A DNA stretch of 41,238 bases from Candidatus Woesearchaeota archaeon (GCA_016177265.1 JACOVP010000020.1:1-41238), one strand, 5' to 3'; shown: positions 5,117 through 30,362, counted from the stretch's first letter. Made by a program: numbers and translations. Notes: generated from the letters alone by a model not told the origin.

Positions 5117-5119
5117 CTC

Positions 5120-8033: not shown

Positions 8034-8042
8034 CGTCCATGC

Positions 8043-8618: not shown

Positions 8619-8651
8619 AGCCTGCAAAACACCATTGCTTATTTAAATAGT

Positions 8652-15010: not shown

Positions 15011-15295
15011 TACTTACTATAGACGTAAAAAAACTTATTTTATATGTGGAATACAATAAAAATACTTACTGAATACGAATAACTACTGCTAAAAATAAAT
15101 GGAATACATAAATAAACATACTATAGACGTAAAAAAACCTAATATAGCATAAAATCAAGAGTTAATTCCTTACTATAAACGTAAATTAACTGCCATATAG
15201 TGCTAGCAATCTTAAAATATACTTACTATTAACGTAATAATACTAATAAAAAGGGAAAAAAGAAGAGAATTTACCTACAAAACACGTAATTATAC
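15011..15295 (+). repeat. phased array of six 24-nt boxes, period 52-53 bp (candidate operator/iteron array)
   Basis: Boxes start at 15011, 15063, 15115, 15167, 15220, 15272. Sequences: tacttactatagacgtaaaaaaac / tacttactgaatacgaataactac / aacatactatagacgtaaaaaaac / tccttactataaacgtaaattaac / tacttactattaacgtaataatac / tacctacaaaacacgtaattatac. Confidence 0.8.
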
Positions 15296-15301
15296 ATAAT
15301 C

Positions 15302-15309
15302 TTTATATA
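15302..15309 (+). promoter_or_regulatory. TATA box of the HTH/surface-protein operon
   Basis: TTTATATA, 27 nt upstream of ATG 15337 and 6 nt after the last 24-nt box. Confidence 0.5.
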
Positions 15310-15336: not shown

Positions 15337-15897
15337 ATGGAAAGGCAACGCAGAAACCCACTCAGAAAGAAAGAGGCAGAACAGGAAAAGCCAGAGAGTT
15401 TTCTCAAGAAATTGCAGACTGAAGAGCGCATTACTCTAGAACGCATCAAGGAACTGCTCCATCTGCTCCGGGCAAAATACGCACTTACCACTAGGGAACT
15501 TATCCATTTGCTCGATGATAAGGATGTGCTTGTTCCCTTCTCTATCTTTACAAAAAAACTCAGCATCCTTGAAGCTATTGCAAAATATCTCAAGGAAGAG
15601 CTGCAATTGTCGTTTCATCAGATTGGTTCGTTGCTCAACCGCAATGAACGAAATATTTGGCACACCTACAGCAATACAAAGAAAAAATATGCTGCTCGCT
15701 TATCCATAACAGCTTCACGATATTTTTTTCCACTGTCTATTTTCCAAAATAATCTGAGCATTCTAGAAAATCTAGTTGTCTATGCGAAGGACGAACTCAA
15801 TTTGTCTTATCATCAAATTGCAGTATTGACAGAACGTAATGATCGTACTATCTGGACCATGTACCAACGTGCAAAGAAGAAGGTGGCGCAACAATGA
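15337..15897 (+). CDS. DNA-binding protein with two tandem sigma-70-region-4/LuxR-like HTH domains
   Basis: Internal duplication: FSIFTKKLSILEAIAKYLKEELQLSFHQIGSLLNRNERNIWHTYSNTKKK and LSIFQNNLSILENLVVYAKDELNLSYHQIAVLTERNDRTIWTMYQRAKKK. TATA 27 nt upstream. Stop overlaps the next start (ATGA). Confidence 0.7.
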   Translation: MERQRRNPLRKKEAEQEKPESFLKKLQTEERITLERIKELLHLLRAKYALTTRELIHLLDDKDVLVPFSIFTKKLSILEAIAKYLKEELQLSFHQIGSLLNRNERNIWHTYSNTKKKYAARLSITASRYFFPLSIFQNNLSILENLVVYAKDELNLSYHQIAVLTERNDRTIWTMYQRAKKKVAQQ

Positions 15898-16763
15898 ACG
15901 AGCAACTCCCGCGCTACAAGGAAGCACAGCAAGAGTTGATGAGGCAGATCCAGACGACGATGAAGAATAAAACTCTCTTGCAAGATACGTTGAAAGAATG
16001 GCAGGAGCAATTGAAGCGAGGAACAATAGATACTGCAACATACACAAACTCTATGCAGCAATTCCTGCAGGGAAGATCAGCAAATGAATGGAACAAAGTA
16101 TACGATGATCACGTCAAGAAATGCAACCAGGGATTGGTCTATTATGCAGAAAAGATCAATGAACTTGAAGCATCTGAAGAGACAAAAGGAAGCATCTGGC
16201 CAAAAGTTGGCATTGTAGCGGTTGCCTTAGTGCTCTTCTTTACCTTCCTAGCATTCAGTGATACGAAGATCACAGGTCTCTTTATTTTCGGGGAAGATGC
16301 AGGCAAGATAGTCTTTGAGGACGGATATACGCGAGAAGGAACGCGCTGGTCTGAAATCAAGGGAGACCATTATTATGAGCGTTGCCTCAAGATTAAGTCT
16401 GAAGCTGACTTCACTGCTGCTAAGGTTATGGGTAAAGTGACACGTGCAACTGAAGGGGAGAATATGCAATTTATATTAAGAAATGACAATAAAGGAGATC
16501 CCGCACAAGAAGTCGGTTCCTGTGAAGTGCGAAGCTATGAAGATGTTATAAAATCTTGTACTATAAAGAATTTAGAGCAGAACAAAGGAGATTATTGGGT
16601 TTGTGCGTCTCATCCGGAGGGAGATAAAGATCAAACCTATTTCACTATTGCCTACAGAGTTGGTGGAGAAAGAAAGACTGCATTATGGACAGGCAAAAGT
16701 TGGCAAAAGTTGGATAGATCTTCTTACACTATGAGGGTGCAGTTTATGAACGATGACGCATAA
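15894..16763 (+). CDS. single-pass membrane protein: helical cytoplasmic N-domain, TM, about 165-aa Cys-containing extracytoplasmic domain
   Basis: TM VGIVAVALVLFFTFLAF (about nt 16206..16260). Coupled to the HTH gene (ATGA) and overlaps the next gene by 11 nt. Confidence 0.65.
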   Translation: MNEQLPRYKEAQQELMRQIQTTMKNKTLLQDTLKEWQEQLKRGTIDTATYTNSMQQFLQGRSANEWNKVYDDHVKKCNQGLVYYAEKINELEASEETKGSIWPKVGIVAVALVLFFTFLAFSDTKITGLFIFGEDAGKIVFEDGYTREGTRWSEIKGDHYYERCLKIKSEADFTAAKVMGKVTRATEGENMQFILRNDNKGDPAQEVGSCEVRSYEDVIKSCTIKNLEQNKGDYWVCASHPEGDKDQTYFTIAYRVGGERKTALWTGKSWQKLDRSSYTMRVQFMNDDA

Positions 16764-19700
16764 GTCATTGAAGAAGAGATTAGTATTTTTTCTTAGTTTG
16801 GTAAGTTTGGTATTCTATCCGCAAATAAATATCGCAGAAGAAAATGTTCCACAACAAATCCAGATGCTGGAGACAGTGAAAAATGATGGTCCTACTACAG
16901 CAGACAATGAGATTACTTTTACTGGACAATGCAATGGACAAGATACCAAGCTAATTATATGTCGAAGCTCAGCGACACTCTGTGACATGGGGACGCTTCC
17001 AGGTGACCTGCTTTGTCTATCTGCTAGAACAAATGAAACGGAGAAATCATGCTCCTATACACCAACGCTAGAGGAAGCTGGTGAACATGCAGGATATAGT
17101 GCAACGTGCTGTGATCTACAAGAGAAATGCGCTGAAAATCAAACAACAGTGGACACATGGGTAATCAATGCACAAAATTCATTAATTATAAAAGATGATA
17201 ATGGTTTGCAAGTTCCAGCTGCTATTGAACAACAAGACACTTCTACCATACTCTCATTCACCAGCCAACCAATAGTCAAGATAACATTCACGAATTTGGA
17301 GGGTAATCAGATAGGACTTAGTCAAACAACTAGAGGGATTATCCCTCCAGAGGGTGTAGAATTTTCTAAAGTCTACGGCATTGATCTTGAGCAAGTCTCC
17401 TTTACAGAAGCAACACTCTATGCAACGGCAGAGGGCTCATCATTATATGTCTGTAAATTTTGGGACTTCACGTTAAGCACATGTATTGGATCTTGGGAAG
17501 CAGTCAAAAAATTGAATCAAAATGAAGAATATACATTCAACCTGCAAAAAAGTTCATTCGGATTTGCTGAAACAACAACCAGTCAAGAGCAGATCGTGGA
17601 AAGAGAAGAGCCATCAAAACAAATAACATCTCCACCTAAACAAAAAATAGAGGAACAAACATCGATAGACCCAGAGCTTCTTTTAGAGCCGATAAAAGAG
17701 GCACAAAATGAACCATTCCCAGTGGAAATAGGGAAAGTATCTAGCAATGGACCAATAGCTGCAGGTTCTCTCATAACTTTTACTGGAAGCTGCACCGGAG
17801 AGAATACTAGACTTTTACTTTGCAGATCAACAGCTACTTCTTGTGGTCTAAATACGCTCCCTGGAAATATTATTTGCCTGTCCGCAAGAACAAATGAATC
17901 AGAAAAGTCTTGTTCTTACAGCGCTATAGAAGAAGATCTTGGTGAACATAAGGAAGATACGGCTGTATGTTGTACAGAAGAGTATGGATGTACTTCTAAA
18001 ATCATCTTGATAGAGCCATGGACTGTGACAGCTCCTCCAGAAATAATACGGGAGGAAGCAAAAGAATCTGAGGAAGACATTCAAGAACAAGCAGAAATCA
18101 ATAAGCCAGTCAAATGGATCAAGAGGGTGCGATATCTTGAAAACGCTAGCAATGTCACGGTCAAAATTCACCCACGCGCAGCAGACATCAAAGTGCACAA
18201 GGTTGCCAATAAAGTGAAGGAAGAGCTCAAGCTAGACAAATGGGAGAAAAACGAAAGACCACAAGAGACAGAAATACTCATCAAGGAGCCAATTCAACAA
18301 GCAGACATTGAGTACAGCACTGCTCCGCCGACAATTGCTGAAGAGGTAATCAATGACTACAAAAAGAAGGTAGTTATTGGTTCTGATATTCACTATACTA
18401 ATATTCTTGCGTATATTGACATTCATGAGGCACAACAAAACCGCATCAGACTCTATCATGTGCAAAATGAGGCTAAAACGCCCGTGCAGATTACAGAATA
18501 TCAAGATACTAATAAAAATGGATTGATCGATAGAATAATGTGGGTTGTTCCAGGACTCAGCACAGAAACATATATCATAGAGATTACGAAAGCAGATCAT
18601 CTTGATAACAATAGGGAATTCATCTCGGACATTTATGAAGAAGTTCGTGAACTTGATGGGAACTGGAGTGAAACAATTCCTAATCAGCATTATGTAAGAG
18701 TTACTTTCGAAAAAAATCTTACAAATGAGAACGATATAACTGTTTATCCAAGGATTGTTTCAGGGAATCCAAGAATTGAGATATATGAAGTGAATGGCAA
18801 TGATATAATCGCTGAATTTACTTCATTGAGTCAAAACCAATACAATAAAGTCTTGCTAACGAATCTGCAGGGAAGCCAGGACACGTTTGATTTAAAAGTC
18901 CAGGGTGGAAGTTTGCAGTTTGACCATATTGTTGATCCTCCAGCAAAAATAGTCGACAATAGTTTTGGCTGCGATAAGACAAGCATTCAAGTCGGAGAAA
19001 CAACGAATTGTACCGGAGACTATGGGAATGCTGGTGACTCTTTTTTAACAGCCTGCAGTCTTCAGATCAACAACGAAATTACTCTCGAATTCTCTAATGT
19101 TTGCGGCGCTAACAACCTAAGAGTAAGCGCTATTGATGTAAGTCAGGCGAGTGCCGCAAGTTGTACTGACAACGGCAATGGCACTGTCAACTGCGTCAAC
19201 TGGCCCAGTACCGCCGACAACGTAGTGATTAACTGGACGCTAGAGGGTTGTGCCGTTTCTACAGCAAATACGCTCGACACAGAGAGTGTAGATTGCAATG
19301 ATCAGTTTAATAATAATGCGCTAGATATTGAAGTTACTGCTGGAGCAGATACAACTCCGCCGACATATTCTAACATAGAGTTTGATCCGGCTAATGCTTC
19401 AAGCTATTCGGTCACGCAATACTATGAGTTCAACGTAACATGGACTGATAATGTGCAGATAGATACAGCATACATAGTATTTGACGATGTGAATTACAGT
19501 GCTGGCGATATCTATAATTTATCAAGCGTGTATTCATTCAACAGAACAGGACTTTCTGTTGGAAGAGAGCACAATTATACTTGGTTCGCTAATGATTCTA
19601 ATGATAATGAAAATCAAACAGAATTGCAGTCTTATACGGTTGTTCAAGCAGAGCCAGGCGTCAACCTCACCTTAGACGGCAATGATGCCAACCTTACAAT

Positions 19701-21381
19701 TACTATGCTTGACGCAGTGAACATTACCGCAACACAAGAAACAGGAGAAGGAGATTTCCAACTCTTCCAAGATGGTGTTTTGATTAATGAAGGACAAACA
19801 CTGCTCAGCAACAGCACCAACTTCACTGGAGAAGGCGACTTCAACATCACGTCCTTCCACCCAGACACGGAAAACTTCACCACGAACTTCACCACCTTCT
19901 ACGTCATCAGCAGAGAGAATATCACGCCTGTCATAAATCTCACTGATCCCCTAGACAACAATGTTACGCTGATTACAGATAGTTCAACGAACCTTACTTT
20001 CTTGTCCAACGCGACAGACAATATCCAATTAGCGAATGCTACGCTGTACCACAATCTTTCTGGAACTTTCGAAGCGAATGAAACAGTCTTTATTGACGGC
20101 ATCTTCAATGAAACAGCTTTCTCACTCAACATAGCGCCCACTACATCATTTATCTGGAATGTCCTCTACTGTGATAATGCTACGAGTCCCAATTGCGCCT
20201 TTGGTGACACGAATTTTACTGCTACCGTAGAACGAGATACGCAAGCTCCCATAGTCAATCTGACCGATCCATTAAACAACAATATCACCAGCACGGACAC
20301 GACAGCAAATCTCACGTTCTTGTCTAATGCAACCGATAACCTTGAACTAGCCAACGCCACGCTGTACCACAATCTTTCTGGAACTTTCGAACAGAACCAA
20401 ACCACAGACATTAATGGCACCTTTAATGAAACTGCGTTCTCCATAGATATAGCACCTACAACAACCTTCATTTGGAACGTGCTCTACTGTGACGCAGCAG
20501 GCAACTGTGATTTTGCAGTAGATAATTTCACAGCAACCGTCCAACCAGATACAGTAGCGCCAATCGTCGAGGCCATTGATGGACCAGGCGGCAACACTAT
20601 TAGTGATCAATCCGTCACGGAAGATAATATCACAGACTTAGAAGTCACGTTCACCGTCACCGATGACAACGGAGTTGCAGATTTAGACTTCTCCACCGTC
20701 AACATCACTCTCTACAACAGCACATATATCACAACCGATGTCAACTACTTCAGCCAGAATACGTCCTGCAATAATAATGAAAATATTTCAGCCACGCAGG
20801 CGAACTTCACCTGCAACATCGAAATCAACTACTGGTACACGGCAGGAGACTGGAATATCACTGCAGGAGTAACAGACATCTCAGGTTTCAGTAGCGAAAA
20901 TGCCACGAATATGTCGATCCAAGAAACCACAGCCATCGCCATCTCGCCAACGAGTATCACCTTCCCAGAACTGACCTTGGGAGCAGAAAACATCACCTCA
21001 GACACCGATCCTATTACTATCAACAACACTGCCAATGACTACATCGATCAAAACAACACGAGAGTCACTGGTTTAGATCTCGTGGGCGAGGTAACTGATA
21101 CACAAGCCATCACGGCAGAGAACTTCACGGTCAGCGAAAGCACAGGTGAAACTCCCCCCGTAGAATGCTCCAATATTGGCGATGATTTAAATAACTCGCG
21201 CCTGATCAACAACACTGCAATAAATGTCAATATGTCAGTCTTGCCCGCGGGCAATCGCAGTATCGCTAATGAGGGTGTCGAGCAGATCTACTTCTGTATT
21301 CCTCTGGTCCCCGATACGCTGTTGCCTCAAGCCTATTCCACCCTCAACAGTACCACAGGATGGACGGTATCGGTGATTTAA
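16753..21381 (+). CDS. giant secreted surface protein, paralog A (1542 aa)
   Basis: Sec-type signal peptide (LVFFLSLVSLVFYPQINIAEE). Two 8-Cys modules, Ig-like repeats, Cys-rich central cassette, roughly 55 N-x-S/T sequons in the C-terminal about 675 aa (manual count). C-terminal about 270-aa domain shared with 21383..25930 and 25978..27018. No C-terminal TM. Confidence 0.85.
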   Translation: MTHKSLKKRLVFFLSLVSLVFYPQINIAEENVPQQIQMLETVKNDGPTTADNEITFTGQCNGQDTKLIICRSSATLCDMGTLPGDLLCLSARTNETEKSCSYTPTLEEAGEHAGYSATCCDLQEKCAENQTTVDTWVINAQNSLIIKDDNGLQVPAAIEQQDTSTILSFTSQPIVKITFTNLEGNQIGLSQTTRGIIPPEGVEFSKVYGIDLEQVSFTEATLYATAEGSSLYVCKFWDFTLSTCIGSWEAVKKLNQNEEYTFNLQKSSFGFAETTTSQEQIVEREEPSKQITSPPKQKIEEQTSIDPELLLEPIKEAQNEPFPVEIGKVSSNGPIAAGSLITFTGSCTGENTRLLLCRSTATSCGLNTLPGNIICLSARTNESEKSCSYSAIEEDLGEHKEDTAVCCTEEYGCTSKIILIEPWTVTAPPEIIREEAKESEEDIQEQAEINKPVKWIKRVRYLENASNVTVKIHPRAADIKVHKVANKVKEELKLDKWEKNERPQETEILIKEPIQQADIEYSTAPPTIAEEVINDYKKKVVIGSDIHYTNILAYIDIHEAQQNRIRLYHVQNEAKTPVQITEYQDTNKNGLIDRIMWVVPGLSTETYIIEITKADHLDNNREFISDIYEEVRELDGNWSETIPNQHYVRVTFEKNLTNENDITVYPRIVSGNPRIEIYEVNGNDIIAEFTSLSQNQYNKVLLTNLQGSQDTFDLKVQGGSLQFDHIVDPPAKIVDNSFGCDKTSIQVGETTNCTGDYGNAGDSFLTACSLQINNEITLEFSNVCGANNLRVSAIDVSQASAASCTDNGNGTVNCVNWPSTADNVVINWTLEGCAVSTANTLDTESVDCNDQFNNNALDIEVTAGADTTPPTYSNIEFDPANASSYSVTQYYEFNVTWTDNVQIDTAYIVFDDVNYSAGDIYNLSSVYSFNRTGLSVGREHNYTWFANDSNDNENQTELQSYTVVQAEPGVNLTLDGNDANLTITMLDAVNITATQETGEGDFQLFQDGVLINEGQTLLSNSTNFTGEGDFNITSFHPDTENFTTNFTTFYVISRENITPVINLTDPLDNNVTLITDSSTNLTFLSNATDNIQLANATLYHNLSGTFEANETVFIDGIFNETAFSLNIAPTTSFIWNVLYCDNATSPNCAFGDTNFTATVERDTQAPIVNLTDPLNNNITSTDTTANLTFLSNATDNLELANATLYHNLSGTFEQNQTTDINGTFNETAFSIDIAPTTTFIWNVLYCDAAGNCDFAVDNFTATVQPDTVAPIVEAIDGPGGNTISDQSVTEDNITDLEVTFTVTDDNGVADLDFSTVNITLYNSTYITTDVNYFSQNTSCNNNENISATQANFTCNIEINYWYTAGDWNITAGVTDISGFSSENATNMSIQETTAIAISPTSITFPELTLGAENITSDTDPITINNTANDYIDQNNTRVTGLDLVGEVTDTQAITAENFTVSESTGETPPVECSNIGDDLNNSRLINNTAINVNMSVLPAGNRSIANEGVEQIYFCIPLVPDTLLPQAYSTLNSTTGWTVSVI
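19924..20556 (+). repeat. in-frame tandem duplication inside paralog A (107-aa and 104-aa units)
   Basis: TPVINLTDPLDNN...NFTATVERDTQ versus APIVNLTDPLNNN...NFTATVQPDTV. Identical 33-mer acgctgtaccacaatctttctggaactttcgaa at 20041 and 20359. Confidence 0.8.
21037..21230 (+). repeat. near-identical dispersed block, copy 1 (3' region of paralog A)
   Basis: gactacatcgatcaaaacaacacgagagtcactggtttagatctcgt...aataaatgtcaa. I count 6 mismatches over 194 nt versus copy 2. Confidence 0.8.
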
Positions 21382-21382
21382 G

Positions 21383-24300
21383 ATGAACTTTTCATATCAG
21401 AAAAAAAAGAGAAACGTCTTTTTACTAATCATAGGTCTCTTTTTAGCATTCACAGTTGGGGCAGAGAATCATGATATTAATCAAGAACCTCATGTAGGAA
21501 CAGTAACAAGTAATGGCTCTGTTATTGAAGGCACGCCAATTACATTTATGGGAACTTGTCAAGGAGAAAACACTCAACTAGTTGTTTGCCAAGAAAATAC
21601 GATCTGCAGTACACAATCTAATCAAGAAGATATAATTTGCTCCTCAGAGTTTACAGATGATGCAGAGAAAGAATGTGTATATATAACAACCAAGGAAGAC
21701 TTATCAATTCATAATAATGACATTGCCACCTGTTGTAATGGAGAAGGTATTTGTGATTCCAATGTTGTGGCAGTTCCTCCTTGGATGGTCCTCGATGAGC
21801 AAGCTACATCACAAATAATAATTTTAGATGATGAAGATAATCTTGTTCCGGCAACAGTTACACAACAAGACACAGAAACTGATATAATTTTTATAAATCA
21901 ACCGATTACAAAATTGCAGTTTAGTGTTTTTGAAGGAAATAAGATTGGTTTAAGTCAAGCGACACGAGGGATTATTCCACCAGAAGGCATAGAGTTCGCA
22001 AAAGTTTACAGCCTAGATGTAGAAGAAGTAAATTTCACTGAAGCAACGTTGTATGCCCTAGCGCAGGGCGCATCACTCTATCTCTGTAAGTTCTGGGACT
22101 TTACATTGAGCACTTGTGTAGGCTCCTGGGATGTAATAAAAAACATTGAACCAAATACAGAATACACTTTCAACCTGCAAAAAGGTTCATTCGGCTTTGC
22201 TGAAGCTATAACAGAAGCACAGCCAGCAGTGCAGCCAGTGATTGAACAGCCTCCTGAAGAGCCAGTCAAGGAGCCGGTTGTCGAAGAACCAATCATCATT
22301 GAAGAGCCAGTTCCAGAAATAAATATAGAAGGTCCTATCACCAATAATGGCCCAGTAGAGCAAGGGCAAGAAATAATATTTTCAGGAATATGCAAAAGCA
22401 ACCAACCAACACAAGTAGTCATCTGTCGAGATAATATTGTTTGCAATGCAGAAACTTCCAAAGAAAATGTGTTGTGCACTTCTGTGCAGTCCCCAGATGA
22501 ACGTAAGTCATGTGCTTATAGTACAACTACAGAAGACATTGGAGAAAATGTAGACTCTATTGCTACATGCTGTACCACTGAAGGCAGCTGCGCAGCAGAA
22601 ACTAAATCTCTAGAATCATGGGCAGTGACAGCCCCTCTAAAAATAATACAAGAAGAGATAAAAGAGTCAGAAGAAGATATCCAGGAGCCAGCAGAGATCA
22701 ATAAACCAGTGCATTGGAAGAAAAAAATAAAGCTTAAGCAGGATATGAAGGACCTTACTGTTACTATCCCTTCCACAAGCACCAACATTACTATTCTTAA
22801 ACGAGAAAATGAGCTTCTCCAAGAATTACAGACCGAACAGTGGAGTCTTCTTGAGAAAGAAAAAGAGAAAGAAATAACCATCAATATACCAGTAAATGAT
22901 GTTGAGTTAGATTATGTTACAGAACCGCCACAGGTAAGTGAATCTGAATTGAGTCCGCACAAAAAACAAGTTACCGTGAGCTCGGATCTGTCCTACACGA
23001 ATATCACCTCGTATACCATCATTCCAGAGACACCAGAGAAAAAACTGCGGCTCTTTTGGATGGTCAATGAATCACGGCAACCAGTAGATAATGTACGATA
23101 TCTCGATACCAATGGCGATAGGCTCATTGATCGGATTGAATGGTTTATTTCCCATTTAAGCAATCAGACCTATGAAGTCATTATGGTGACGAAAGCGGAT
23201 CATCTAGATGAGAATAAAGTGTTCTTGTCCGATGTCTACAACGAGGTCAAGCAATTGGATAATGTTTGGAGTGAAACCATTCCAGAAACCCATTACGTTC
23301 AAGTGACGTTTGGCACACCCCTGACAGCAAGACACGATATTTCTATCTATCCACGCATAGTGGGTGGTAATCCAAAGATTATAGTCTATGAAGTCAATCA
23401 ATCGGAAGTGCTGGCGGAATTCTCTACCATCACAGCAAACCAGTACAATAAAGTCTTTTTAGAGAATCTCAACGGAACGCAAGAGACGTTTGATTTGCAG
23501 ATTCTTAATGGTGCTGTTGAGTTTGATCATATTGTTGATCCAACGCTCACTATTTCTAATATAACCACTCTCTGCGGTGAAGTCACTGCTTATGACACCA
23601 TTGTGGTCACGGAAACAGGTGAGCTGGAAATTTGTCTTATGAATGGAACTGGCACGAATAGCAATACTGGTTTTGTGAACATTACCTTGGGATCTGTAGG
23701 AAATTTCTCTGTCGCTGCAGGCGGGATAGTGAATGGCACTGGTGGCGGTGCTGAAGGTGGCGCGGGTACAAATTCAGGCTGCGCAACCCAGGGAGATAAT
23801 GGTCAGAATTATACGAATGGAGTGGCTCTTTGTAGTCCGAATGGTGGAGGCGGTGGAGGAGGAAGTGATGCTACTTCTACTGCCGAGACCGCTGGAGGTG
23901 GTGGAGGGGGATTTGGAGGCGCTGGCGGTACTGGTGGGAAGTCTGCAACTGGTGGTACAGTGGGCGCGGCAGGTGGAACGTATGGAGATGCTGAAGAACA
24001 AGAGCTCAATACATCTGGTTCCGGTGGTGGTGGTAGTTCAGATGACGCTGGAGTTAGAGGAGGTTCTGGTGGCGCTGGTTTTAGGGTTGACGCTGGCAGC
24101 GGCGAGATTAATATTCAAGGCACTATTAATGTGAGTGGGGAAGATGGCACAGATGCCGCGGGAAACGCGGATCGGGCGGGAGCAGGCGGAGGAAGTGGCG
24201 GTCATGTTATCCTGATTGCGAAAAAATTAAATCTTAATGCAGGTGCTATTTACGCGGAAGGGGGAAGAGGAGGCAATGGAGGCACTACCGCTGATGGTTG

Positions 24301-25930
24301 TGGTGGTGGAGGCGGTGGCGGAGGAAGAATTGTCTATGTCTATGATAATATTACCGAAGACAGCCTTATCAATTCAACAGATGGTGGTGACAGAGGCAAT
24401 AGCCCAGACACTGGTCCTTGTGCGGCCCTGCCAACGTTAGGTACCAACGGAACAGTCTTCTATAATCAATCAACGTTCGCGGATCTTTCACCACCAATAG
24501 CTGACCCTAATAGTATAGTTTTCGATCCAATCAATGAAACAAATTACACGCTTACACAATTCTACGAATTCAATGCCACATGGACAGATGATGTGGAAGT
24601 AGACAATGTCTTCATCACGTTCAACGAAACGAACTACAGCTTTGCAAAAGGAGAAGTCTACAACAGTTCAGAGACACCAACCGTCTTCTCCTTCAACCAG
24701 ACAGGATTGGCAGCGGCAGAATATAACTACACGTGGTTCGCCAACGATTCTAGTAACAACGAAAACCAGACAGACTTGCAGTTTGGATACATTGTCGCGC
24801 GAGCGGAGCCTGAAGTGAACTTGACCTTAAATGATACCATAAATAACATCACCATCATAGTCAGCGATGCGGAAGTCAATCATTCTGCCTCGTTAATTAC
24901 AGGTGACTCTGAAGCAACCGTCCAGATCCTTCAAGACGGAGTAGCCATGGTGACAGAAGGCGCCTCTCCTACCATCAGCAACGTCACCAACTACACAGCA
25001 ACAGGAACCTACAATATCACTGTCCTGTATCAAACCTCGGAAAATTATACCACGAACTTTACGACGCTCTTCGTCGAGGTCACTGCAGCAGCTGGAGGCA
25101 ACACTGCACCAGTCGTTGAAGCGATTGATGGCCCAGGTGGTAATACCATCTCATCTCAATCAGTAACAGAAGATGGCATCACTGACCTAGGAGTCACCTT
25201 CACCATCACAGATGCAGAAGGAGTTACAGACTTAAATGCAACAGAAATAAACATCACGCTCTTCAACACCACCTATATCACGACCGATGTCAACTACTTT
25301 AGCCAAAACACCTCGTGCGACAACATCAACAACATCTCATCAACACAGGCGAACTTTACGTGCAACATAGAGATCAACTACTGGTACACAGCAGGAGAAT
25401 GGAATCTCACCGTTGGAGCAACTGACATTGCTGGTGCAAGTAGCGAAAATGCTACCAATATAAGCATCGGAGAGACAACAGCTATTGTTATTGACCTAAC
25501 GTCACTGACATTCCCGCAATTGATTTTAGGGGCAGAAAACACCACCTCAGACAACGATCCTATCACCATCAACAACACAGCCAATGACTACATCGATCAA
25601 AACAACACGAGAGTCACTGGTTTAGATCTCGTGGGCGAAGTAACTGATACACAGGCCATCACGACAGAGAACTTCACGGTCAGCGAAAGCACAGGTGAAA
25701 CTCCGCCCGTAGAATGCTCCAATATTGGTGATAATTTAAATAACTCGCGCCTGATCAACAACACTGCAATAAATGTCAACATGTCAATCTTATCCTCAGG
25801 TAATCGTAGTATCGCGGGAGAAGGCGTCGAGCAACTGTATGTGTGCATTCCTATAGTTCCCGATGGACTCCTGCCCCAGGCCTATTCCACGTTAAATGGT
25901 ACAACAGGATGGACAGTATCTGTGGTATAA
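21383..25930 (+). CDS. giant secreted surface protein, paralog B (1515 aa) with Gly-rich central cassette
   Basis: Signal peptide (VFLLIIGLFLAFTVGAEN). Collinear with paralog A except for a swapped central cassette and the missing tandem pair. GGTGAT Shine-Dalgarno 5 nt upstream, 1-nt gap after paralog A. Confidence 0.85.
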   Translation: MNFSYQKKKRNVFLLIIGLFLAFTVGAENHDINQEPHVGTVTSNGSVIEGTPITFMGTCQGENTQLVVCQENTICSTQSNQEDIICSSEFTDDAEKECVYITTKEDLSIHNNDIATCCNGEGICDSNVVAVPPWMVLDEQATSQIIILDDEDNLVPATVTQQDTETDIIFINQPITKLQFSVFEGNKIGLSQATRGIIPPEGIEFAKVYSLDVEEVNFTEATLYALAQGASLYLCKFWDFTLSTCVGSWDVIKNIEPNTEYTFNLQKGSFGFAEAITEAQPAVQPVIEQPPEEPVKEPVVEEPIIIEEPVPEINIEGPITNNGPVEQGQEIIFSGICKSNQPTQVVICRDNIVCNAETSKENVLCTSVQSPDERKSCAYSTTTEDIGENVDSIATCCTTEGSCAAETKSLESWAVTAPLKIIQEEIKESEEDIQEPAEINKPVHWKKKIKLKQDMKDLTVTIPSTSTNITILKRENELLQELQTEQWSLLEKEKEKEITINIPVNDVELDYVTEPPQVSESELSPHKKQVTVSSDLSYTNITSYTIIPETPEKKLRLFWMVNESRQPVDNVRYLDTNGDRLIDRIEWFISHLSNQTYEVIMVTKADHLDENKVFLSDVYNEVKQLDNVWSETIPETHYVQVTFGTPLTARHDISIYPRIVGGNPKIIVYEVNQSEVLAEFSTITANQYNKVFLENLNGTQETFDLQILNGAVEFDHIVDPTLTISNITTLCGEVTAYDTIVVTETGELEICLMNGTGTNSNTGFVNITLGSVGNFSVAAGGIVNGTGGGAEGGAGTNSGCATQGDNGQNYTNGVALCSPNGGGGGGGSDATSTAETAGGGGGGFGGAGGTGGKSATGGTVGAAGGTYGDAEEQELNTSGSGGGGSSDDAGVRGGSGGAGFRVDAGSGEINIQGTINVSGEDGTDAAGNADRAGAGGGSGGHVILIAKKLNLNAGAIYAEGGRGGNGGTTADGCGGGGGGGGRIVYVYDNITEDSLINSTDGGDRGNSPDTGPCAALPTLGTNGTVFYNQSTFADLSPPIADPNSIVFDPINETNYTLTQFYEFNATWTDDVEVDNVFITFNETNYSFAKGEVYNSSETPTVFSFNQTGLAAAEYNYTWFANDSSNNENQTDLQFGYIVARAEPEVNLTLNDTINNITIIVSDAEVNHSASLITGDSEATVQILQDGVAMVTEGASPTISNVTNYTATGTYNITVLYQTSENYTTNFTTLFVEVTAAAGGNTAPVVEAIDGPGGNTISSQSVTEDGITDLGVTFTITDAEGVTDLNATEINITLFNTTYITTDVNYFSQNTSCDNINNISSTQANFTCNIEINYWYTAGEWNLTVGATDIAGASSENATNISIGETTAIVIDLTSLTFPQLILGAENTTSDNDPITINNTANDYIDQNNTRVTGLDLVGEVTDTQAITTENFTVSESTGETPPVECSNIGDNLNNSRLINNTAINVNMSILSSGNRSIAGEGVEQLYVCIPIVPDGLLPQAYSTLNGTTGWTVSVV
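25586..25779 (+). repeat. near-identical dispersed block, copy 2 (3' region of paralog B)
   Basis: Same in-frame position (DYIDQNNTRVTGLDLVGE...INNTAINVN) as copy 1. Confidence 0.8.
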
Positions 25931-25939
25931 AAAGGAACA

Positions 25940-25947
25940 TTTATAAA
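25940..25947 (+). promoter_or_regulatory. internal TATA box for paralog C and downstream genes
   Basis: TTTATAAA, 30 nt upstream of ATG 25978, in the only real gap (47 nt) of the locus. Confidence 0.45.
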
Positions 25948-25977
25948 TAAGGTATACAACATCTAAAGGAAAAAAAG

Positions 25978-27018
25978 ATGGCTAATTGCAAAAAGCAGGT
26001 GTCAAAAAGACAAAAGATAGTATTGGTAATTCTCCTGCTTATACTAGGGTATAATATGCATTTCGTCGCTGCAGATTTTTCAGAGGCATTTACGCAGGCA
26101 GTAACCTCTTTCTTCAGAGGTAATGGTAACCTTATCACGGGCATGCCAACAGCAAGAGAGTCAAATGTTTCAGCTACAGTCGGGAATAACGTTCCAGTAG
26201 TCGAAGCAGTTGATGGTCCAGGCGGTAATTCCATTAGTGCACAAGCTGCTACTGAAGACAACATTACTGACTTGCTAGTAACTTTCGTAGTCAATGACTC
26301 GAATGGGGTAGCGGATATTAATTTGACAGGCGTCAACATCACACTCTATAACAGCACATATATCTCTACTGATGTCAACTACTACAGCTATAATACCTCG
26401 TGCGATAACACTGCCAATCTCACAACAACGCAAATGAACGTCAGTTGCACAATAGAAATCTGGTACTGGTACACGTCAGGAGAATGGAATTTGACAGCGG
26501 GAGTTTCAGACTTTTCAGATGCGGCAGCAGAAAATGCTACTAACTTCACCATCGATGAATCAACAGGCATTGTCATCTCGCCAACGAGTATCACCTTCCC
26601 TAGCCTGACTTTGGGAGCAGAAAACACCACCTCAGACAACGATCCTATCGTCATCAATAACACCTTGAACGACTACATCGATCAAAACAACACGAGAGTC
26701 ACTGGTTTAGATCTCGTTGGTGAAACCGATCCAGGTGCACAAGCCATCACGACAGAGAACTTCACGGTCAGCGAAAGCACAGGTGAAACTCCTCCATTAG
26801 AATGCTCATTTATTGGCGATAATTTAAATAACTCGCGCCTGATCAACAACACCGCAATAAATGTCAACATGTCAATCTTGTCAGCAGGTAATCGTAGCAT
26901 CTCTGGAGAAGGCGTCGAGCAGATCTATGTCTGTATCCCCCTTGTCCCTGAAGGTCTTGTAGCGCAAACGTATTCTACAGCAAATGGCACAACAGGATGG
27001 ACAGTATCGGTGGTATAA
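25978..27018 (+). CDS. secreted protein, paralog C: signal peptide plus stand-alone copy of the shared C-terminal domain (346 aa)
   Basis: VEAVDGPGGNSISAQAATEDNITDL...TTGWTVSVV aligns end to end with the last about 270 aa of paralogs A and B. Own TTTATAAA box 30 nt upstream. Confidence 0.8.
   Translation: MANCKKQVSKRQKIVLVILLLILGYNMHFVAADFSEAFTQAVTSFFRGNGNLITGMPTARESNVSATVGNNVPVVEAVDGPGGNSISAQAATEDNITDLLVTFVVNDSNGVADINLTGVNITLYNSTYISTDVNYYSYNTSCDNTANLTTTQMNVSCTIEIWYWYTSGEWNLTAGVSDFSDAAAENATNFTIDESTGIVISPTSITFPSLTLGAENTTSDNDPIVINNTLNDYIDQNNTRVTGLDLVGETDPGAQAITTENFTVSESTGETPPLECSFIGDNLNNSRLINNTAINVNMSILSAGNRSISGEGVEQIYVCIPLVPEGLVAQTYSTANGTTGWTVSVV
26671..26868 (+). repeat. near-identical dispersed block, copy 3 (paralog C)
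   Basis: Same block, slightly more diverged, with a short substituted stretch (ggtgaaaccgatccaggtgcacaa) and long identical runs on both sides. Confidence 0.75.
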
Positions 27019-27019
27019 A

Positions 27020-27649
27020 ATGAACAACGCACAATATATACAAAAAGTACTCCTCATGATAGGGCTAATAACATTAGCAAGTAGCGTTGTTGCTGCGTTT
27101 GGTGTGACGGCTCCTTACTGGAAAGGAAGCCCTCTAACGCTCACTCCTGGTGAAACAAGAGAAATAACATTTACCTTGCAAAATATGGTGGGGGACGACG
27201 ATCTTCGTGTTCGAGTTGAACTTCTTCAGGATAAAAGATATGTAGAACTTATCGACACAGAGACAGAATATGAAATCCCAGCAAAAACCAAAGATATCCC
27301 TGTTCGCATCAGGATAAAAATTCCCATAGATATACAGCTTGGAACTACATTTCCCATACGACTGTCGTTTACCAGCACCTCTAAACTAGGAAGCCAGCAA
27401 GTCCAGCTTGGAACAGGCATTGAGAAAACATTTGATGTCATCATTGAGGGAGGAGAACCTGCAAAACAAGTAGCAGAAACACCAGCAGAAAAGCCATCAG
27501 CCCAGCAATATCAACTTCTGAGAAAACCGGCAACACCTGCTCTAATTGTCTTAATCATGGTCTTTATCCTCTGGTTTGTCCTCAGAAAACACAGAAAAAA
27601 ATTGCAGGAAAGGAAAGAATCCTCTGCTGACAACAATGCAAGATGGTAA
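27020..27649 (+). CDS. secreted beta-sandwich-like protein with C-terminal TM anchor
   Basis: Signal peptide VLLMIGLITLASSVVAAFG. PLTLTPGETREITFTLQN strand pattern. C-terminal PALIVLIMVFILWFVLRKHRKK. ATG 27020 chosen (GGTGGT 5 nt upstream, 1 nt after the paralog C stop). Confidence 0.7.
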   Translation: MNNAQYIQKVLLMIGLITLASSVVAAFGVTAPYWKGSPLTLTPGETREITFTLQNMVGDDDLRVRVELLQDKRYVELIDTETEYEIPAKTKDIPVRIRIKIPIDIQLGTTFPIRLSFTSTSKLGSQQVQLGTGIEKTFDVIIEGGEPAKQVAETPAEKPSAQQYQLLRKPATPALIVLIMVFILWFVLRKHRKKLQERKESSADNNARW

Positions 27650-29090
27650 ATATTTTATCTCCTTTCGACAGCTGTTCTTTATTCTAGTTCTAGTACTCCT
27701 CGCTATGCGACTTTCCTTCTATCAAAAAGAAGAGCAAAAAACAATAATTGATGCAGCCTCTGTCTTTGATGCAGCCGCCACCACAGGGCTGACTAACATT
27801 TCCGCAACCGTCATCGACAGTTCACCATTCATCACGATCACTAATCCAGAGAACAAAACGTATGAAAATAATGAAAGCGTAGAGCTAAACATCTCGGTTG
27901 CGAATATGTCCTCTCTTTCTATCGATCAGGCGTTCTATAATCTTGATGATACTGATAATATTACCTTGACGTTGGACAGCAATAATGAAAACAGGACATT
28001 CTTTGGTACAGCTGAGGGTTCACACACATTGAAAGTTTTCGCTAATAATACAGCAAATGAGCTCAACAGCACGTCAGTAGACTTATTCTTAAACAGATCG
28101 ATTCGTTTTCATGTCAACTACTCTAAATACGATGCATTGACCACAGCGTTCAGTACGCTGAATGAGTCAGACTTGGAAACGATACAGAACATGATCTTAG
28201 AGATATCTTCATTTGGCAAGATTGAATTTAATGAGGTAATTAATATGACAGATGATAATATAACGGATGAGAATGTCGATATTAATCCAGATTACCATAT
28301 CAATATCACAAGCATGCTTATCTTTATCAATGAAACCGTCTTTCCAAATTTGGAAGGCAAACAAGCTTCAATTGCTTTCTACAATGTATCCTTTGCTAAC
28401 CCTAGGGTTCTTAGAAATGGAGTAGCATGTCCTGTAACTATCTGCACATCACAGACTCTTGCAAACCAAATACTAACAGTGAGCATATCAGGCTTTTCAC
28501 AGTATGAAGTAGAAGAAGGTGAAGGTGAGGGTGCAGGAGGAGGTGGTGGGGGCGGTGGAGTTGGAGGTGGAGGCGGAGGTGGCGGAGGAGTTGCTACTAC
28601 CGCTACGTATAATTTAGACGAGGTAGATGAGCAGACCAATCTTCTTGCTAGAATCGGTAAAATATTCATTATCTGGAAAGGAGAAGAATATACCGCTCGT
28701 GTTGGAAAGCCTTCGCCAAGCATAGTCTTGATTGATTTTACAGTTCTTGGAGCAAAATTAATGCTAAGCGTTGGGCAAACAAGTACACTAGATCTCGATA
28801 ATGATGGGGAAGTAGATATAAGAATAAAAGTAGAGGATATGAAAAGCAACTTTCTCATTCTAACAGTGAGTGCTCTACGACCGAGAAGCGAACCCTCTAG
28901 AGATATTAAAAAACAAGAGGAAGAACCAAAGCCATTACCAAGGTCACTCATCACGATCACAAAAAAAGCATTACTCAATAAAGATCTCCTAGGAATAATT
29001 CTTTTATTAATTGTTGCTGGCATTATTGTTGAAGTTGAACGCCGCAAGAAAATGAAGAGTCATAAAGGAAGAGCTTTGCACAATAAATAG
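27636..29090 (+). CDS. sequon-rich surface protein with poly-Gly linker and C-terminal TM anchor
   Basis: N-terminal signal anchor FFILVLVLLAMRL. Ig-like ITITNPENKTYENNESVELN.... Linker GEGEGAGGGGGGGGVGGGGGGGGGV. C-terminal LLGIILLLIVAGIIVEVERRKK. First ATG of the track ORF. Confidence 0.7.
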   Translation: MQDGKYFISFRQLFFILVLVLLAMRLSFYQKEEQKTIIDAASVFDAAATTGLTNISATVIDSSPFITITNPENKTYENNESVELNISVANMSSLSIDQAFYNLDDTDNITLTLDSNNENRTFFGTAEGSHTLKVFANNTANELNSTSVDLFLNRSIRFHVNYSKYDALTTAFSTLNESDLETIQNMILEISSFGKIEFNEVINMTDDNITDENVDINPDYHINITSMLIFINETVFPNLEGKQASIAFYNVSFANPRVLRNGVACPVTICTSQTLANQILTVSISGFSQYEVEEGEGEGAGGGGGGGGVGGGGGGGGGVATTATYNLDEVDEQTNLLARIGKIFIIWKGEEYTARVGKPSPSIVLIDFTVLGAKLMLSVGQTSTLDLDNDGEVDIRIKVEDMKSNFLILTVSALRPRSEPSRDIKKQEEEPKPLPRSLITITKKALLNKDLLGIILLLIVAGIIVEVERRKKMKSHKGRALHNK

Positions 29091-29101: not shown

Positions 29102-29157
29102 AGCAGATGCAATCTACGTCACGAGCAAAGGTTTTTGTGCTTGTCCTCTCATCTGCT
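29102..29157 (-). other. 8-bp inverted repeat spanning the tnpB stop codon (candidate omega-RNA stem or bidirectional terminator)
   Basis: AGCAGATG (29102..29109) and CATCTGCT (29150..29157). Lies between convergent genes separated by only 23 nt. Confidence 0.3.
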
Positions 29158-30214: not shown

Positions 30215-30238
30215 AGAATTACCGATTATTGTTTTCCC

Positions 30239-30246
30239 TTTATATA
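30239..30246 (-). promoter_or_regulatory. TATA box of tnpB-like gene
   Basis: Minus-sense TATATAAA, 24 nt upstream of ATG 30214. Confidence 0.5.
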
Positions 30247-30354
30247 CTTCAGTGGGGTGTTTGAGAAGTGCAGTGCTACTCAACAGTATGCAAAAAACAC
30301 CGAAAACTTTTCGGAATATATGATTTATTGTGCAAAGCCTAAAGGAAGAAAACA

Positions 30355-30362
30355 TTTATAAT
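30355..30362 (+). promoter_or_regulatory. TATA box of topA
   Basis: TTTATAAT, 24 nt upstream of ATG 30387. Confidence 0.5.

What the first reader, a model, noticed from the sequence alone, without database searches (positions are those of the whole stretch)
15337..29090. 14-kb locus: regulator plus membrane partner plus two 1500-aa paralogous hyper-glycosylatable secreted proteins plus a C-domain-only paralog plus two anchored proteins; candidate host-attachment apparatus
Seven co-oriented genes are joined by overlaps or 1-nt gaps, with a single internal promoter. Paralogs A, B and C have signal peptides but no membrane anchor or recognisable sorting signal. The flanking genes (15894, 27020, 27636) each have one TM anchor and could tether them. 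One third of this window is invested in this locus in an otherwise minimal, housekeeping-dense genome. That fits a cell-surface structure central to the lifestyle, for example attachment to a host cell. No ATPase, pilin-like prepeptide or known S-layer motif was recognised, so it does not match described archaeal surface filaments.
Basis: partly seen in the sequence, partly recalled or inferred. Interest (0 to 1): 0.75.

Follow-up and report, generated by a model that had tools for sequence, protein, structure and literature searches.

The report
Archaeal surface-protein locus wired to a DNA-binding protein
A seven-gene locus in a tiny symbiont-type (DPANN) archaeon encodes giant sugar-coated surface proteins that, in most related genomes, are fused through the membrane to a DNA-binding domain, so it is probably a surface sensing and attachment system rather than a passive coat.

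Summary
Seven co-oriented genes lie at 15337-29090, with TATA-like boxes only before g1 and before C. A (1542 aa) and B (1515 aa) are paralogs, and C (346 aa) is a free copy of their last ~280 aa. N-glycosylation sequons are 2.3-2.7-fold enriched.

New findings:
1. The locus is conserved in Woese-/Pacearchaeota-type DPANN genomes. C-g6-g7 is the constant core. The C-domain family has 1766 representative clusters.
2. In most relatives, g2's cytoplasmic N-terminus plus TM, the big ectodomain, the C-domain, a short hydrophobic/polybasic segment and the g1-type tandem HTH form one polypeptide of up to 4368 aa. The 'regulator' and 'membrane partner' are therefore parts of one membrane-spanning unit, which is split in this window.
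3. A locus-specific dyad motif, repeated six times at a 52-nt period here, sits at the promoter in both the split and the fused lineages.
4. g7 carries a domain remotely homologous to the Nup98/ZU5 autoproteolytic domain, with a conserved F-[S/T]-x-Y motif.
5. The variable regions of orthologs carry lectin and Ig domains.

Best reading: a surface adhesin/sensor complex coupled to an autoregulatory transcription factor. Host attachment is plausible but untested. An S-layer role is not excluded.

The parts
15013..15288 (+). Array of six operator-like dyad sites (CTTAC-N5-ACGTA, i.e. TTAC-N7-GTAA) spaced 52, 52, 52, 53 and 52 nt, ending 63 nt before the g1 ATG
   Evidence: All 6 matches (<=1 mismatch) in the 41-kb window lie here. 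The same motif lies upstream of g1 in L001, L002, L004, L007 and L008.
15302..15309 (+). TATA-like box (TTTATATA), 35 nt upstream of the g1 start
15337..15897 (+). g1: 186-aa cytoplasmic protein with two tandem sigma-70-region-4-like HTH units. It has no signal peptide and no TM.
   Evidence: Pfam Sigma70_r4_2 E 2.2e-8. The internal repeat is visible. The module is fused to the C-terminus of the big surface protein in relatives.
15894..16763 (+). g2: 289-aa single-pass membrane protein. It has a ~97-aa helical cytoplasmic N-terminal part, a TM at aa 98-127, an 'ITG' motif, and a ~160-aa Cys-containing ectodomain.
   Evidence: The N-terminal part plus TM forms the N-terminus of the big protein in L007, L008 and the Pace-type loci.
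16753..21381 (+). A: 1542-aa secreted glycoprotein and the extra paralog. It has a signal peptide, two Cys-rich modules, mid1, the KADHLD module, sequon-rich Ig-like repeats and the C-domain.
18040..18957 (+). A aa 430-735: the mid1 and 'KADHLD' modules. This is the most conserved ectodomain part of the big proteins across lineages.
   Evidence: 62 homologs, many 65-73% identical over ~125 aa. AF2 mean pLDDT 93.9, all-beta. No close fold neighbour, TM-score <=0.3.
20527..21378 (+). C-domain of A (aa 1259-1542): two beta-sandwich domains, ending in WTVSVI
21383..25930 (+). B: 1515-aa secreted glycoprotein. It is the ortholog of the single big protein of relative L001 (58% identity over the full length). 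It contains a Gly-rich region at aa ~725-1030.
25085..25927 (+). C-domain of B (aa 1235-1515). It includes a 94-97% nucleotide-identity tract shared with A, which is a gene-conversion patch.
25940..25947 (+). Internal TATA-like box (TTTATAAA), 38 nt upstream of the C start
   Evidence: In L001, C-g6-g7 is separated from the big gene by a 4-kb insertion, which fits a separate transcription unit.
25978..27018 (+). C: 346-aa secreted, sequon-dense (6 per 100 aa) stand-alone copy of the C-domain. It has a signal peptide with a V-x-A site and a conserved NLITG motif.
27020..27649 (+). g6: 209-aa protein with an N-terminal hydrophobic segment, one Ig-like beta-sandwich, a C-terminal TM and a basic tail. 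It has no sequons.
27636..29090 (+). g7: 484-aa protein with an N-terminal hydrophobic segment, an Ig-like domain, a Nup98/ZU5-like domain, a poly-Gly linker, a small beta domain, a C-terminal TM and a basic tail
28131..28505 (+). g7 aa 166-290: domain remotely homologous to the Nup98/Nup116/Nup145 autoproteolytic domain (peptidase S59, ZU5-like). The candidate scissile F|S is at codons 28494-28499 (motif GFSQY).
   Evidence: PF04096 is the top Pfam family for 11 of 14 orthologs, best E 1.2e-6, below the curated cut-off. The top PDB profile hits are Nup APDs, E from 2.8e-4. hhalign against human Nup98 APD gives E 5e-4 over 103 columns, with F-S-x-Y aligned on HF|SKY.

Best explanation
The locus encodes a membrane-spanning cell-surface complex of Woese-/Pacearchaeota-type DPANN archaea. 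The complex couples large, lectin-/Ig-bearing, heavily N-glycosylated ectodomains to a cytoplasmic tandem-HTH DNA-binding module.

Shown:
- In most relatives one polypeptide runs: cytoplasmic helical N-terminus (= g2 N-part), TM1, mid1-KADHLD, a variable region with LamG, H-lectin, Ig or Gly-rich domains, the C-domain, a short hydrophobic plus polybasic segment, and 2x (sometimes 4x) HTH (= g1).
- In this window that unit is split into g1, g2 and a secreted ectodomain, and the ectodomain gene is duplicated (A and B).
- A free copy of the membrane-proximal C-domain (C) and two C-terminally anchored proteins (g6, g7) always accompany it. They have their own promoter.
- A locus-specific dyad operator flanks the promoter in both the split and the fused lineages.

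Inferred:
- The HTH module binds these operators and autoregulates the locus.
- g2's cytoplasmic part holds or controls g1 at the membrane, in the manner of an anti-sigma factor or a ToxR-like regulator. Events at the ectodomain, such as binding a ligand or another cell's surface, would then change transcription.
- C, g6 and g7 form the membrane-proximal base that retains the anchorless A, B and C, possibly through C-domain to C-domain contacts.
- g7 self-cleaves at F|S like Nup98/PIDD and stays non-covalently assembled, which would give a shear-sensitive joint.
- The distal lectin-type modules mediate attachment.
For: 1. Conservation and synteny. The order g1-g2-big-C-g6-g7 lies between SerRS and topoisomerase in L002 and L004, and beside topoisomerase in L001 (its upstream flank is not held). 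C-g6-g7 is present in essentially all 20 loci where the flank is long enough.

2. Gene fusions.
- In L007 and L008 the big protein starts with g2N plus TM.
- In L009, L011-L014, L016, L017 and L019 the big ORF continues from the C-domain into the HTH module.
- Independent gene calls in the 1.84-billion-protein library show the same thing. 36 of 54 large representatives have C-domain, then a junction of the type WTIKIL...RRKKK, then HTH. Full-length examples read g2N-TM-mid1-KADHLD-...-Cdom-HTH.
- Pfam confirms Sigma70_r4_2 in fused proteins, up to E 4e-19.

3. Operator.
- All 6 window matches to CTTAC-N5-ACGTA lie upstream of g1 at a 52-nt period.
- In W-type relatives 1/1, 2/2, 1/1, 2/3 and 2/2 matches lie upstream of g1.
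- Fused-type loci have TACANANATAATANGTA in 2/2, 2/2, 2/2, 2/3 and 2/2 cases at the start of the big gene. The spacing is 51-52 nt in three of these loci.

4. Surface location. Signal peptides or TMs, sequon enrichment and conserved Cys pairs all point outward.

5. Ligand-binding potential. Laminin_G_3 (E 4e-19 and 5e-25), H_lectin and Big_13 occur in orthologs.

6. Diversifying copy number. A and B are duplicated here. L013 holds at least 3 big genes, 2 C, 2 g6 and 2 g7 within 20 kb.

7. C-domain concerted evolution. dS is ~0.9 overall, but A and B share a 94-97% nucleotide-identity tract, and it is ~90% identical to C.

8. g7 homology to the Nup98/ZU5 autoproteolytic domain, with F invariant, S/T at +1 in 14 of 14 and Y/F at +3. 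ZU5/Nup98-type domains are described as autoprocessing modules of bacterial cell-surface proteins (PMC3417536).
Against: - There are no expression, localisation or binding data. Every functional step is inferred.
- The putative second TM in fused relatives is short, at 10-15 apolar residues after the last beta-strand. Membrane passage of the HTH rests on the polybasic flank, on g1 lacking a signal peptide, and on the operators.
- The g1-operator link is by association only.
- The g7/Nup98 similarity is below Pfam's curated cut-off. The His of the HFS triad is not conserved, so cleavage is uncertain.
- Lectin domains were found in orthologs, not in A or B themselves, which have no Pfam hits.
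- The C model has only moderate confidence (pLDDT 72) and gives generic tandem-Ig matches only.
- An abundant, glycosylated small secreted protein with its own promoter (C) plus anchored partners would also fit an S-layer.
Confidence: 0.5

Rival explanations
1. Ordinary cell-envelope (S-layer-type) locus. C, and/or the big proteins, form the glycoprotein wall lattice. g6 and g7 are the membrane stalks, in the SlaA/SlaB manner. g1 is just the local transcription factor, and the fusions merely tether an envelope protein.
For: - Large and small secreted, very sequon-rich Ig-like proteins sit with C-terminally anchored partners in one operon.
- C has its own canonical TATA box.
- The family is near-universal in the lineage, with 1766 representative clusters.
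- One Foldseek match is to the Deinococcus HPI S-layer protein, although it is weak.
- No other S-layer candidate is visible in the window.
Against: - There is no sequence or fold match to any solved or curated S-layer protein.
- Multiple divergent sets occur per genome (L013; A and B here), and the middle regions are highly variable and lectin-bearing. This is atypical for a lattice protein.
- Covalent fusion of an envelope protein to a tandem HTH with matching promoter operators has no precedent in S-layer systems and demands a signalling or regulatory role.
- g7 lacks the coiled-coil stalk of SlaB.
Confidence: 0.2
2. Polymerising surface fibre. C is the major subunit of a donor-strand-type thread. 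A and B are tip or side adhesins that join through their C-domain, as lectin-plus-pilin adhesins do in chaperone-usher or sortase pili. g2, g6 and g7 are base anchors.
For: - The architecture 'adhesin = distal domains plus the same domain as a small abundant subunit' is present.
- The N-terminal segment of C (aa ~30-70, with the conserved NLITG...NVSATV motif) is modelled with low confidence. That is as expected for an exchanged strand.
- A similar TG...LSITV motif starts g7, and ITG follows the TM of g2 and of the fused big proteins.
- The top Foldseek hits are Gram-positive adhesin Ig tandems.
Against: - There is no match to TasA/ABP, archaeal thread or pilin folds among the top hits.
- There is no usher, chaperone, sortase or SipW-type gene, no assembly ATPase and no class III signal peptide.
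- In most relatives the C-domain of the big protein is directly followed by a membrane segment. This places it at the membrane, not at a fibre tip.
- The strand-exchange idea could not be tested.
Confidence: 0.08
3. The same transmembrane signalling architecture, but it senses environmental polymers or nutrients rather than a host cell. Such ligands could be glycans or cell-wall debris, as in RsgI/SigI-like sensing.
For: - LamG and lectin modules are carbohydrate binders.
- The closest mechanistic analogues, RsgI-SigI and FecR-FecI, sense extracellular substrates (established knowledge).
- Nothing in the data identifies a host.
Against: - The only visible target of the operator is the locus itself. 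No enzyme or transporter genes are linked.
- The ectodomains are very large, up to 4368 aa, and the reduced genome suggests a symbiont lifestyle. A related contig is 0.91 Mb. Both fit cell-cell contact better.
Confidence: 0.15

Closest known systems
ECF sigma / single-pass anti-sigma transmembrane signalling (FecI-FecR; SigI-RsgI of Clostridium thermocellum)
   Same: - The gene for a sigma-70-region-4-type HTH protein is followed, with a 4-nt overlap, by a single-pass membrane protein. That protein has a cytoplasmic N-domain and an extracytoplasmic beta-rich domain.
- Carbohydrate-binding modules sit on the outside.
- An autoproteolytic extracytoplasmic element lies in the pathway.
- The system is autoregulated.
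   Different: - Archaea do not use sigma factors.
- g1 has two region-4-like units and no region 2.
- g2 has no recognisable anti-sigma domain.
- In most relatives the HTH is covalently part of the membrane protein.
- The ectodomain is 1000-4000 aa.
ToxR/CadC-type membrane-integrated one-component regulators
   Same: In the fused relatives, a DNA-binding domain, a membrane segment and a sensory ectodomain sit in one polypeptide. The protein presumably binds its own promoter while membrane-tethered.
   Different: - Here the DBD is a C-terminal tandem sigma-r4-like HTH, not an N-terminal winged helix.
- The protein crosses the membrane twice, so both ends are cytoplasmic.
- It is up to 4368 aa and carries adhesin-type domains.
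- The window's version is split into three genes.
Nup98/Nup145 autoproteolytic domain (peptidase S59) and ZU5 domains of PIDD, UNC5 and bacterial surface proteins; functionally also SEA and GAIN domains
   Same: The g7 central domain aligns over nearly the whole APD, with F-[S/T]-x-Y on HF|SKY. It sits in an extracellular stalk directly before a flexible linker and a membrane anchor, like SEA and GAIN autoproteolytic joints.
   Different: - Similarity is below Pfam's cut-off.
- The His is not conserved.
- The context is extracellular and archaeal.
- Cleavage is unproven.
Sulfolobales S-layer SlaA/SlaB
   Same: A large, heavily N-glycosylated secreted protein without an anchor is co-encoded with a smaller protein that has an N-terminal signal, beta-sandwich domains and a C-terminal TM.
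   Different: - There is no sequence or fold homology.
- There is no coiled-coil stalk.
- Extra components are present (C, g6, g1, g2).
- The copy number is variable.
- The big protein is fused to an HTH in relatives.
Adhesin-plus-pilin-domain logic of chaperone-usher and sortase pili; archaeal threads and bundling pili
   Same: The big proteins end in the same two-domain module that also exists as a small, separately expressed protein.
   Different: - There is no assembly machinery.
- There is no homology to known subunits.
- The shared domain is membrane-proximal.
Giant DPANN surface proteins proposed for host interaction (for example nanohaloarchaeal SPEARE proteins, or the Woese-/Pacearchaeota murein-transglycosylase proteins of PMC8204110)
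   Same: These are very large secreted or membrane proteins in reduced DPANN genomes, and they have been proposed to mediate contact with hosts.
   Different: - The domain content differs. No protease, nuclease or transglycosylase domain was found.
- None of those proteins is reported with a cytoplasmic HTH or with the C-g6-g7 partner set.

Membership tests
SlaA/SlaB-type or other curated archaeal S-layer proteins | Sequence or fold homology to a known S-layer protein | tested here: not met
   There are no Pfam or NCBIfam hits for A, B, C or g7. There are no PDB sequence hits. Foldseek gives only generic Ig tandems, with one weak HPI S-layer hit at rank 37.
SlaA/SlaB-type or other curated archaeal S-layer proteins | Forms a regular 2-D lattice and is the dominant envelope protein | not testable with these tools
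   This needs cryo-ET or proteomics.
ECF sigma / anti-sigma pair | DNA-binding partner has sigma-70 regions 2 and 4 | tested here: not met
   Only Sigma70_r4_2-like HTH units are found (E 2.2e-8), present twice, with no region 2.
ECF sigma / anti-sigma pair | Adjacent single-pass membrane protein with a cytoplasmic N-domain | tested here: met
   g2 overlaps g1 by 4 nt and has one TM at aa 98-127. No anti-sigma Pfam domain is detected, however.
Membrane-integrated one-component regulator (ToxR/CadC-like) | DBD, TM and ectodomain in one polypeptide | tested here: inconclusive
   This is met in 36 of 54 large relatives. It is not met in this window, where the parts are separate genes. The DBD type and position differ from ToxR/CadC.
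Peptidase S59 / Nup98 autoproteolytic (ZU5-like) domain | Significant match to PF04096 or to solved APDs | tested here: inconclusive
   PF04096 is the top family in 11 of 14 orthologs. The best E is 1.2e-6 on the domain alone. The best whole-protein score is 25.0 bits, below the 28.4-bit cut-off. The window's own g7 scores E 0.059. PDB profile hits are almost all Nup APDs, E 2.8e-4 to 1. hhalign gives E 5e-4 with probability 31%.
Peptidase S59 / Nup98 autoproteolytic (ZU5-like) domain | HF|S catalytic motif at the C-terminal end of the domain | tested here: inconclusive
   F is invariant. The +1 residue is S in 10 and T in 4 of 14 orthologs. The +3 residue is Y or F. His at -2 is present in only one ortholog.
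Peptidase S59 / Nup98 autoproteolytic (ZU5-like) domain | Actual self-cleavage | not testable with these tools
   This needs expression of g7 and of an S287A mutant.
Donor-strand pili (TasA/ABP, archaeal threads, chaperone-usher) | Homology to known subunits, or presence of dedicated assembly genes | tested here: not met
   No such Foldseek or Pfam hits were found, and the locus has no usher, chaperone or SipW gene.
Type IV pilin-like archaeal filaments | Class III signal peptide plus assembly ATPase and platform genes | tested here: not met
   The N-termini are Sec-type with V-x-A sites. There is no ATPase in the locus.

The most novel reading that the evidence does not exclude
The system is an archaeal contact receptor. 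A giant adhesin crosses the membrane and carries its own transcription factor. It works with a self-cleaved ZU5/Nup98-like partner (g7) as a force-sensitive joint. Binding to a host cell would thus be converted directly into gene regulation, in a Notch- or adhesion-GPCR-like logic within DPANN archaea. The conserved APD-like groove of g7 may dock the free C-terminal strand (WTVSVV) of A, B and C.
Probability: 0.2. Interest if true: 0.9.

Novelty: new variant of a known kind. Interest (0 to 1): 0.72.

Why it matters
DPANN archaea are abundant, mostly uncultured, and thought to live attached to other cells. How they recognise and respond to partners is unknown.

This locus belongs to a large lineage-specific system that is absent from Pfam and NCBIfam. 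I found no paper describing it. Its parts are tied together by gene fusions into one membrane-spanning unit that ends in a DNA-binding domain with matching promoter operators.

That gives a concrete, testable candidate for surface sensing and attachment in these organisms. It would also be an unusual case of very large membrane-tethered transcription factors in archaea. Finally, it puts a Nup98/ZU5-type autoproteolytic domain on an archaeal cell surface, which bears on the prokaryotic origin proposed for that eukaryotic nuclear-pore module.

Tried and rejected
- **PDB sequence/profile searches.** C-domain, the N-terminal Cys-rich modules, g2 and g1 gave nothing significant.
- **Foldseek, C model.** Only generic tandem-Ig hits, TM-score ~0.2.
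- **Foldseek, high-confidence mid1-KADHLD model.** No real neighbour against PDB or viral structures, TM-score <=0.3.
- **NCBIfam.** Only a weak 'choice-of-anchor T' hit for g6.
- **Third word-indexed homolog search.** The g7 domain returned nothing, so that search was wasted.
- **Locus scan with the full alignment A1.** It failed for lack of conserved stretches. It was repeated with closer sequences.
- **Viral contig scan for the C-domain.** No relatives.
- **Rfam.** Only one tRNA in the window.
- **Sigma-70 promoter/terminator scan.** Uninformative for an archaeon.
- **Literature searches.** No description of the locus was found.
- **Readings rejected.** Type IV pilus and chaperone-usher/TasA-type fibre memberships were rejected because no subunit homology or machinery was found. 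A mobile-element origin was rejected because the locus is syntenic among relatives. Only the downstream TnpB is an insertion.

Full report
**Context.** The window is archaeal. It carries PAC2, CDC48, a RadA-like protein, SerRS, topoisomerase and an XerC/D-like integrase, and its GC content is ~40%. Relatives that carry the same locus are MAGs labelled Nanoarchaeota, Woesearchaeota or Pacearchaeota. One related contig is 909,730 bp long, which fits a reduced DPANN genome.

**Observation.**
- All seven + strand genes are present as described.
- Junctions are short overlaps or 1-nt gaps, except for 47 nt before C.
- TATA-like boxes at 35-38 nt from an ATG occur only before g1 and before C.
- A and B are 44% identical over aa 1-733 and 83% identical over the last 274 aa. 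C is 70-73% identical to those ends.
- Sequons are 2.3-2.7-fold above shuffled expectation in A, B, C and g7. They are concentrated in aa 800-1500 of A and B, while the first 700 aa are almost sequon-free.
- A, B and C have only an N-terminal hydrophobic segment. g2 has one TM. g6 and g7 have an N-terminal hydrophobic segment plus a C-terminal TM with a basic tail.
- Pfam and NCBIfam recognise only a sigma-70-region-4-like HTH in g1, E 2.2e-8.

**Conservation.**
- The word-indexed search with C found only 14 clusters. A profile search of 1.84 billion representatives found 1766 proteins at E<=1e-3, of which 613 had E<=1e-30.
- Of the best 150, 107 are stand-alone proteins of 300-340 aa. The rest carry the domain at or near the C-terminus of proteins of up to 4368 aa.
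- Gene context was read in 20 loci. C-g6-g7 is the constant core.
- In L002 and L004 the locus g1-g2-big-C-g6-g7 lies between SerRS and topoisomerase, as it does here. In L001 it lies beside topoisomerase, and the upstream flank is not held. Each of these three has a single big gene.
- B is 58% identical over its full length to the big protein of L001. A is therefore the extra copy.
- In L001 a 4-kb insertion separates the big gene from C-g6-g7. It carries AAA_14/DUF4143 genes and a toxin-antitoxin pair. This fits the internal promoter.
- L013 holds several sets in tandem.

**Fusions.**
- In L007 and L008 the big protein begins with the g2-type cytoplasmic N-terminus and TM.
- In L009, L011-L014, L016, L017 and L019 the big ORF starts in the same way and continues past the C-domain. 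It runs through a short apolar stretch and a polybasic run (for example WIIRISLALLIPRKRKKK) into one or two copies of the g1-type tandem HTH.
- The same architecture is seen in independent gene calls. 36 of 54 large representatives have C-domain, junction and HTH. Full-length ones read g2N-TM-mid1-KADHLD-variable-Cdom-HTH.
- Pfam confirms the HTH in fused proteins, with Sigma70_r4_2 up to E 4e-19. It also finds Laminin_G_3, H_lectin and Big_13 in the variable parts.
- g1, g2 and the big ectodomain are therefore pieces of one unit whose two ends are cytoplasmic.
- One caveat applies. The second membrane segment is short, at 10-15 apolar residues. Its passage through the membrane is inferred from the polybasic flank, from g1 having no signal peptide, and from the operator evidence.

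**Operator.**
- The 362-nt region upstream of g1 holds six copies of CTTAC-N5-ACGTA, a TTAC-N7-GTAA dyad, spaced 52, 52, 52, 53 and 52 nt. These are the only matches in the 41-kb window.
- The motif lies next to the TATA box upstream of g1 in L001, L002, L004, L007 and L008.
- Loci with the fused HTH have a related dyad, TACANANATAATANGTA. It occurs almost exclusively at the start of the big gene, twice per locus, and 51-52 nt apart in three loci.
- A locus-specific cis element that tracks the locus's own HTH is best explained by autoregulation. Binding itself is not shown.

**Modules.**
- *C-domain.* The AF2 model of C has pLDDT 72 and shows two beta-sandwich domains. Foldseek finds only generic tandem-Ig adhesin or scaffold proteins.
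- *Concerted evolution.* The C-domains of A, B and C have dS ~0.9 overall, but A and B share a 94-97% nucleotide-identity tract that is ~90% identical to C. This is a gene-conversion patch.
- *mid1-KADHLD.* A aa 430-735 is the most conserved ectodomain part. It has 62 homologs, many of them 65-73% identical over ~125 aa although the proteins are otherwise unrelated. The model is of high confidence (pLDDT 93.9), all-beta, and has no real structural neighbour. Such conservation suggests a constant docking function.
- *g7.* It has an Ig-like domain followed by a domain for which PF04096 (Nup98-96 autopeptidase S59) is the top Pfam family in 11 of 14 orthologs. The best E is 1.2e-6, below the curated cut-off. 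Profile searches of the PDB return almost only Nup116, Nup98 and Nup145 autoproteolytic domains, from E 2.8e-4.
It places the family's F-[S/T]-x-Y on HF|SKY. F is invariant, +1 is S or T in all 14 orthologs, and the His is not conserved. A Gly/Ser/Pro-rich linker follows directly.
- *ZU5 literature.* The Nup98 domain has been classed as a ZU5 domain, a fold said to have arisen in bacterial cell-surface proteins for autoprocessing (PMC3417536).
- *g6.* It is a single Ig-like domain with a C-terminal anchor.

**Interpretation.** The best-supported model is a surface adhesin/sensor complex coupled across the membrane to an autoregulatory HTH. C, g6 and g7 would form the membrane-proximal base, and g7 may provide an autoproteolytic joint.
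- Shown: the anatomy, the fusions, the conserved operator and the surface features.
- Inferred: DNA binding, the g1-g2 interaction, tethering of A, B and C, g7 cleavage and the ligand.
It gains support from the lectin domains in orthologs and from the diversifying copy number, but it is untested.
- An S-layer role cannot be excluded without imaging or proteomics, and C fits that role best. However, it does not explain the HTH fusion, the operators or the multiple variable sets.
- A donor-strand fibre is less likely. No machinery or subunit homology was found, and the shared domain sits at the membrane.

**Novelty.** No paper found describes this locus. Castelle et al. 2021 note only that Woese- and Pacearchaeota share about 51 lineage-specific families, mostly membrane or extracellular and of unknown function (PMC8204110). 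I rate the system a new variant of known kinds (membrane-tethered transcription regulators; autoproteolytic surface stalks), in an unusual giant, adhesin-like and sometimes split form.

Noticed in passing
window 29114-30355 (-): A TnpB / IS605 OrfB-type gene (Cas12f1-like TNB domain, E 4.8e-21) lies between g7 and the topoisomerase gene. In L002 and L004, g7 is followed directly by topoisomerase, so this is an insertion. Its N-terminus overlaps the longest topoisomerase ORF start (30330).
   Followed up: partly
window 5450-12883 (-): A MoxR ATPase - DUF58 - DUF7502 - coiled-coil - VWA - BatA/VWA/DUF7407-7408 cluster (Bat-like) lies on the other strand. The BatA-type gene lies in the same position next to SerRS and the surface locus in L002 and L004. 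Any functional link to the locus is unknown.
   Followed up: no
window 5023-5117 (+): The single tRNA is 94-95 nt long. ARAGORN calls it tRNA-Asp with an odd anticodon (atc). Rfam gives a tRNA score of 49.9 bits. It probably contains an intron and is mis-assigned.
   Followed up: no
C aa 50-68, g2 aa 125-132, g7 aa 47-60; fused big proteins in L007-L019: A short '[IL]TG' motif follows the N-terminal hydrophobic segment in C (NLITG...NVSATV), in g7 (TTG...NISATV), in g2 (KITGLFIF), and after TM1 of the fused big proteins (P-x-[IL]TG-[FL]-x-V). Its meaning is unknown. It could be a processing site, a linker or an exchanged strand.
   Followed up: partly
B aa ~725-1030 (window 23555-24472): This region is Gly-rich and repetitive (GGGGGG..., GGSGGAGF..., GGGSGGHVILIAKKLNLNAGAIYAEGGRGGNGG). 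It is conserved in L001 and seen in other KADHLD-bearing proteins (P0020). It has no Pfam match and may be a beta-helix.
   Followed up: no
L001 6111-9855; window 39804-41069: AAA_14/DUF4143 ATPase genes and an NTP_transf_2/HepT toxin-antitoxin pair interrupt the locus in L001, between the big gene and C. A similar AAA_14/DUF4143 gene sits at the end of this window. These appear to be mobile in these genomes.
   Followed up: no
L009 (JAHYJW010000006.1): A contig carrying a typical fused big-C-g6-g7 locus is deposited as a 'Patescibacteria group bacterium' MAG. It is probably a mis-binned DPANN contig.
   Followed up: no
L003 7933-14378: A distant variant of the locus has a 315-aa protein with 4x HTH, two tandem C-type proteins, g6, and a 927-aa g7-like protein. 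It has no big gene and no g2.
   Followed up: partly
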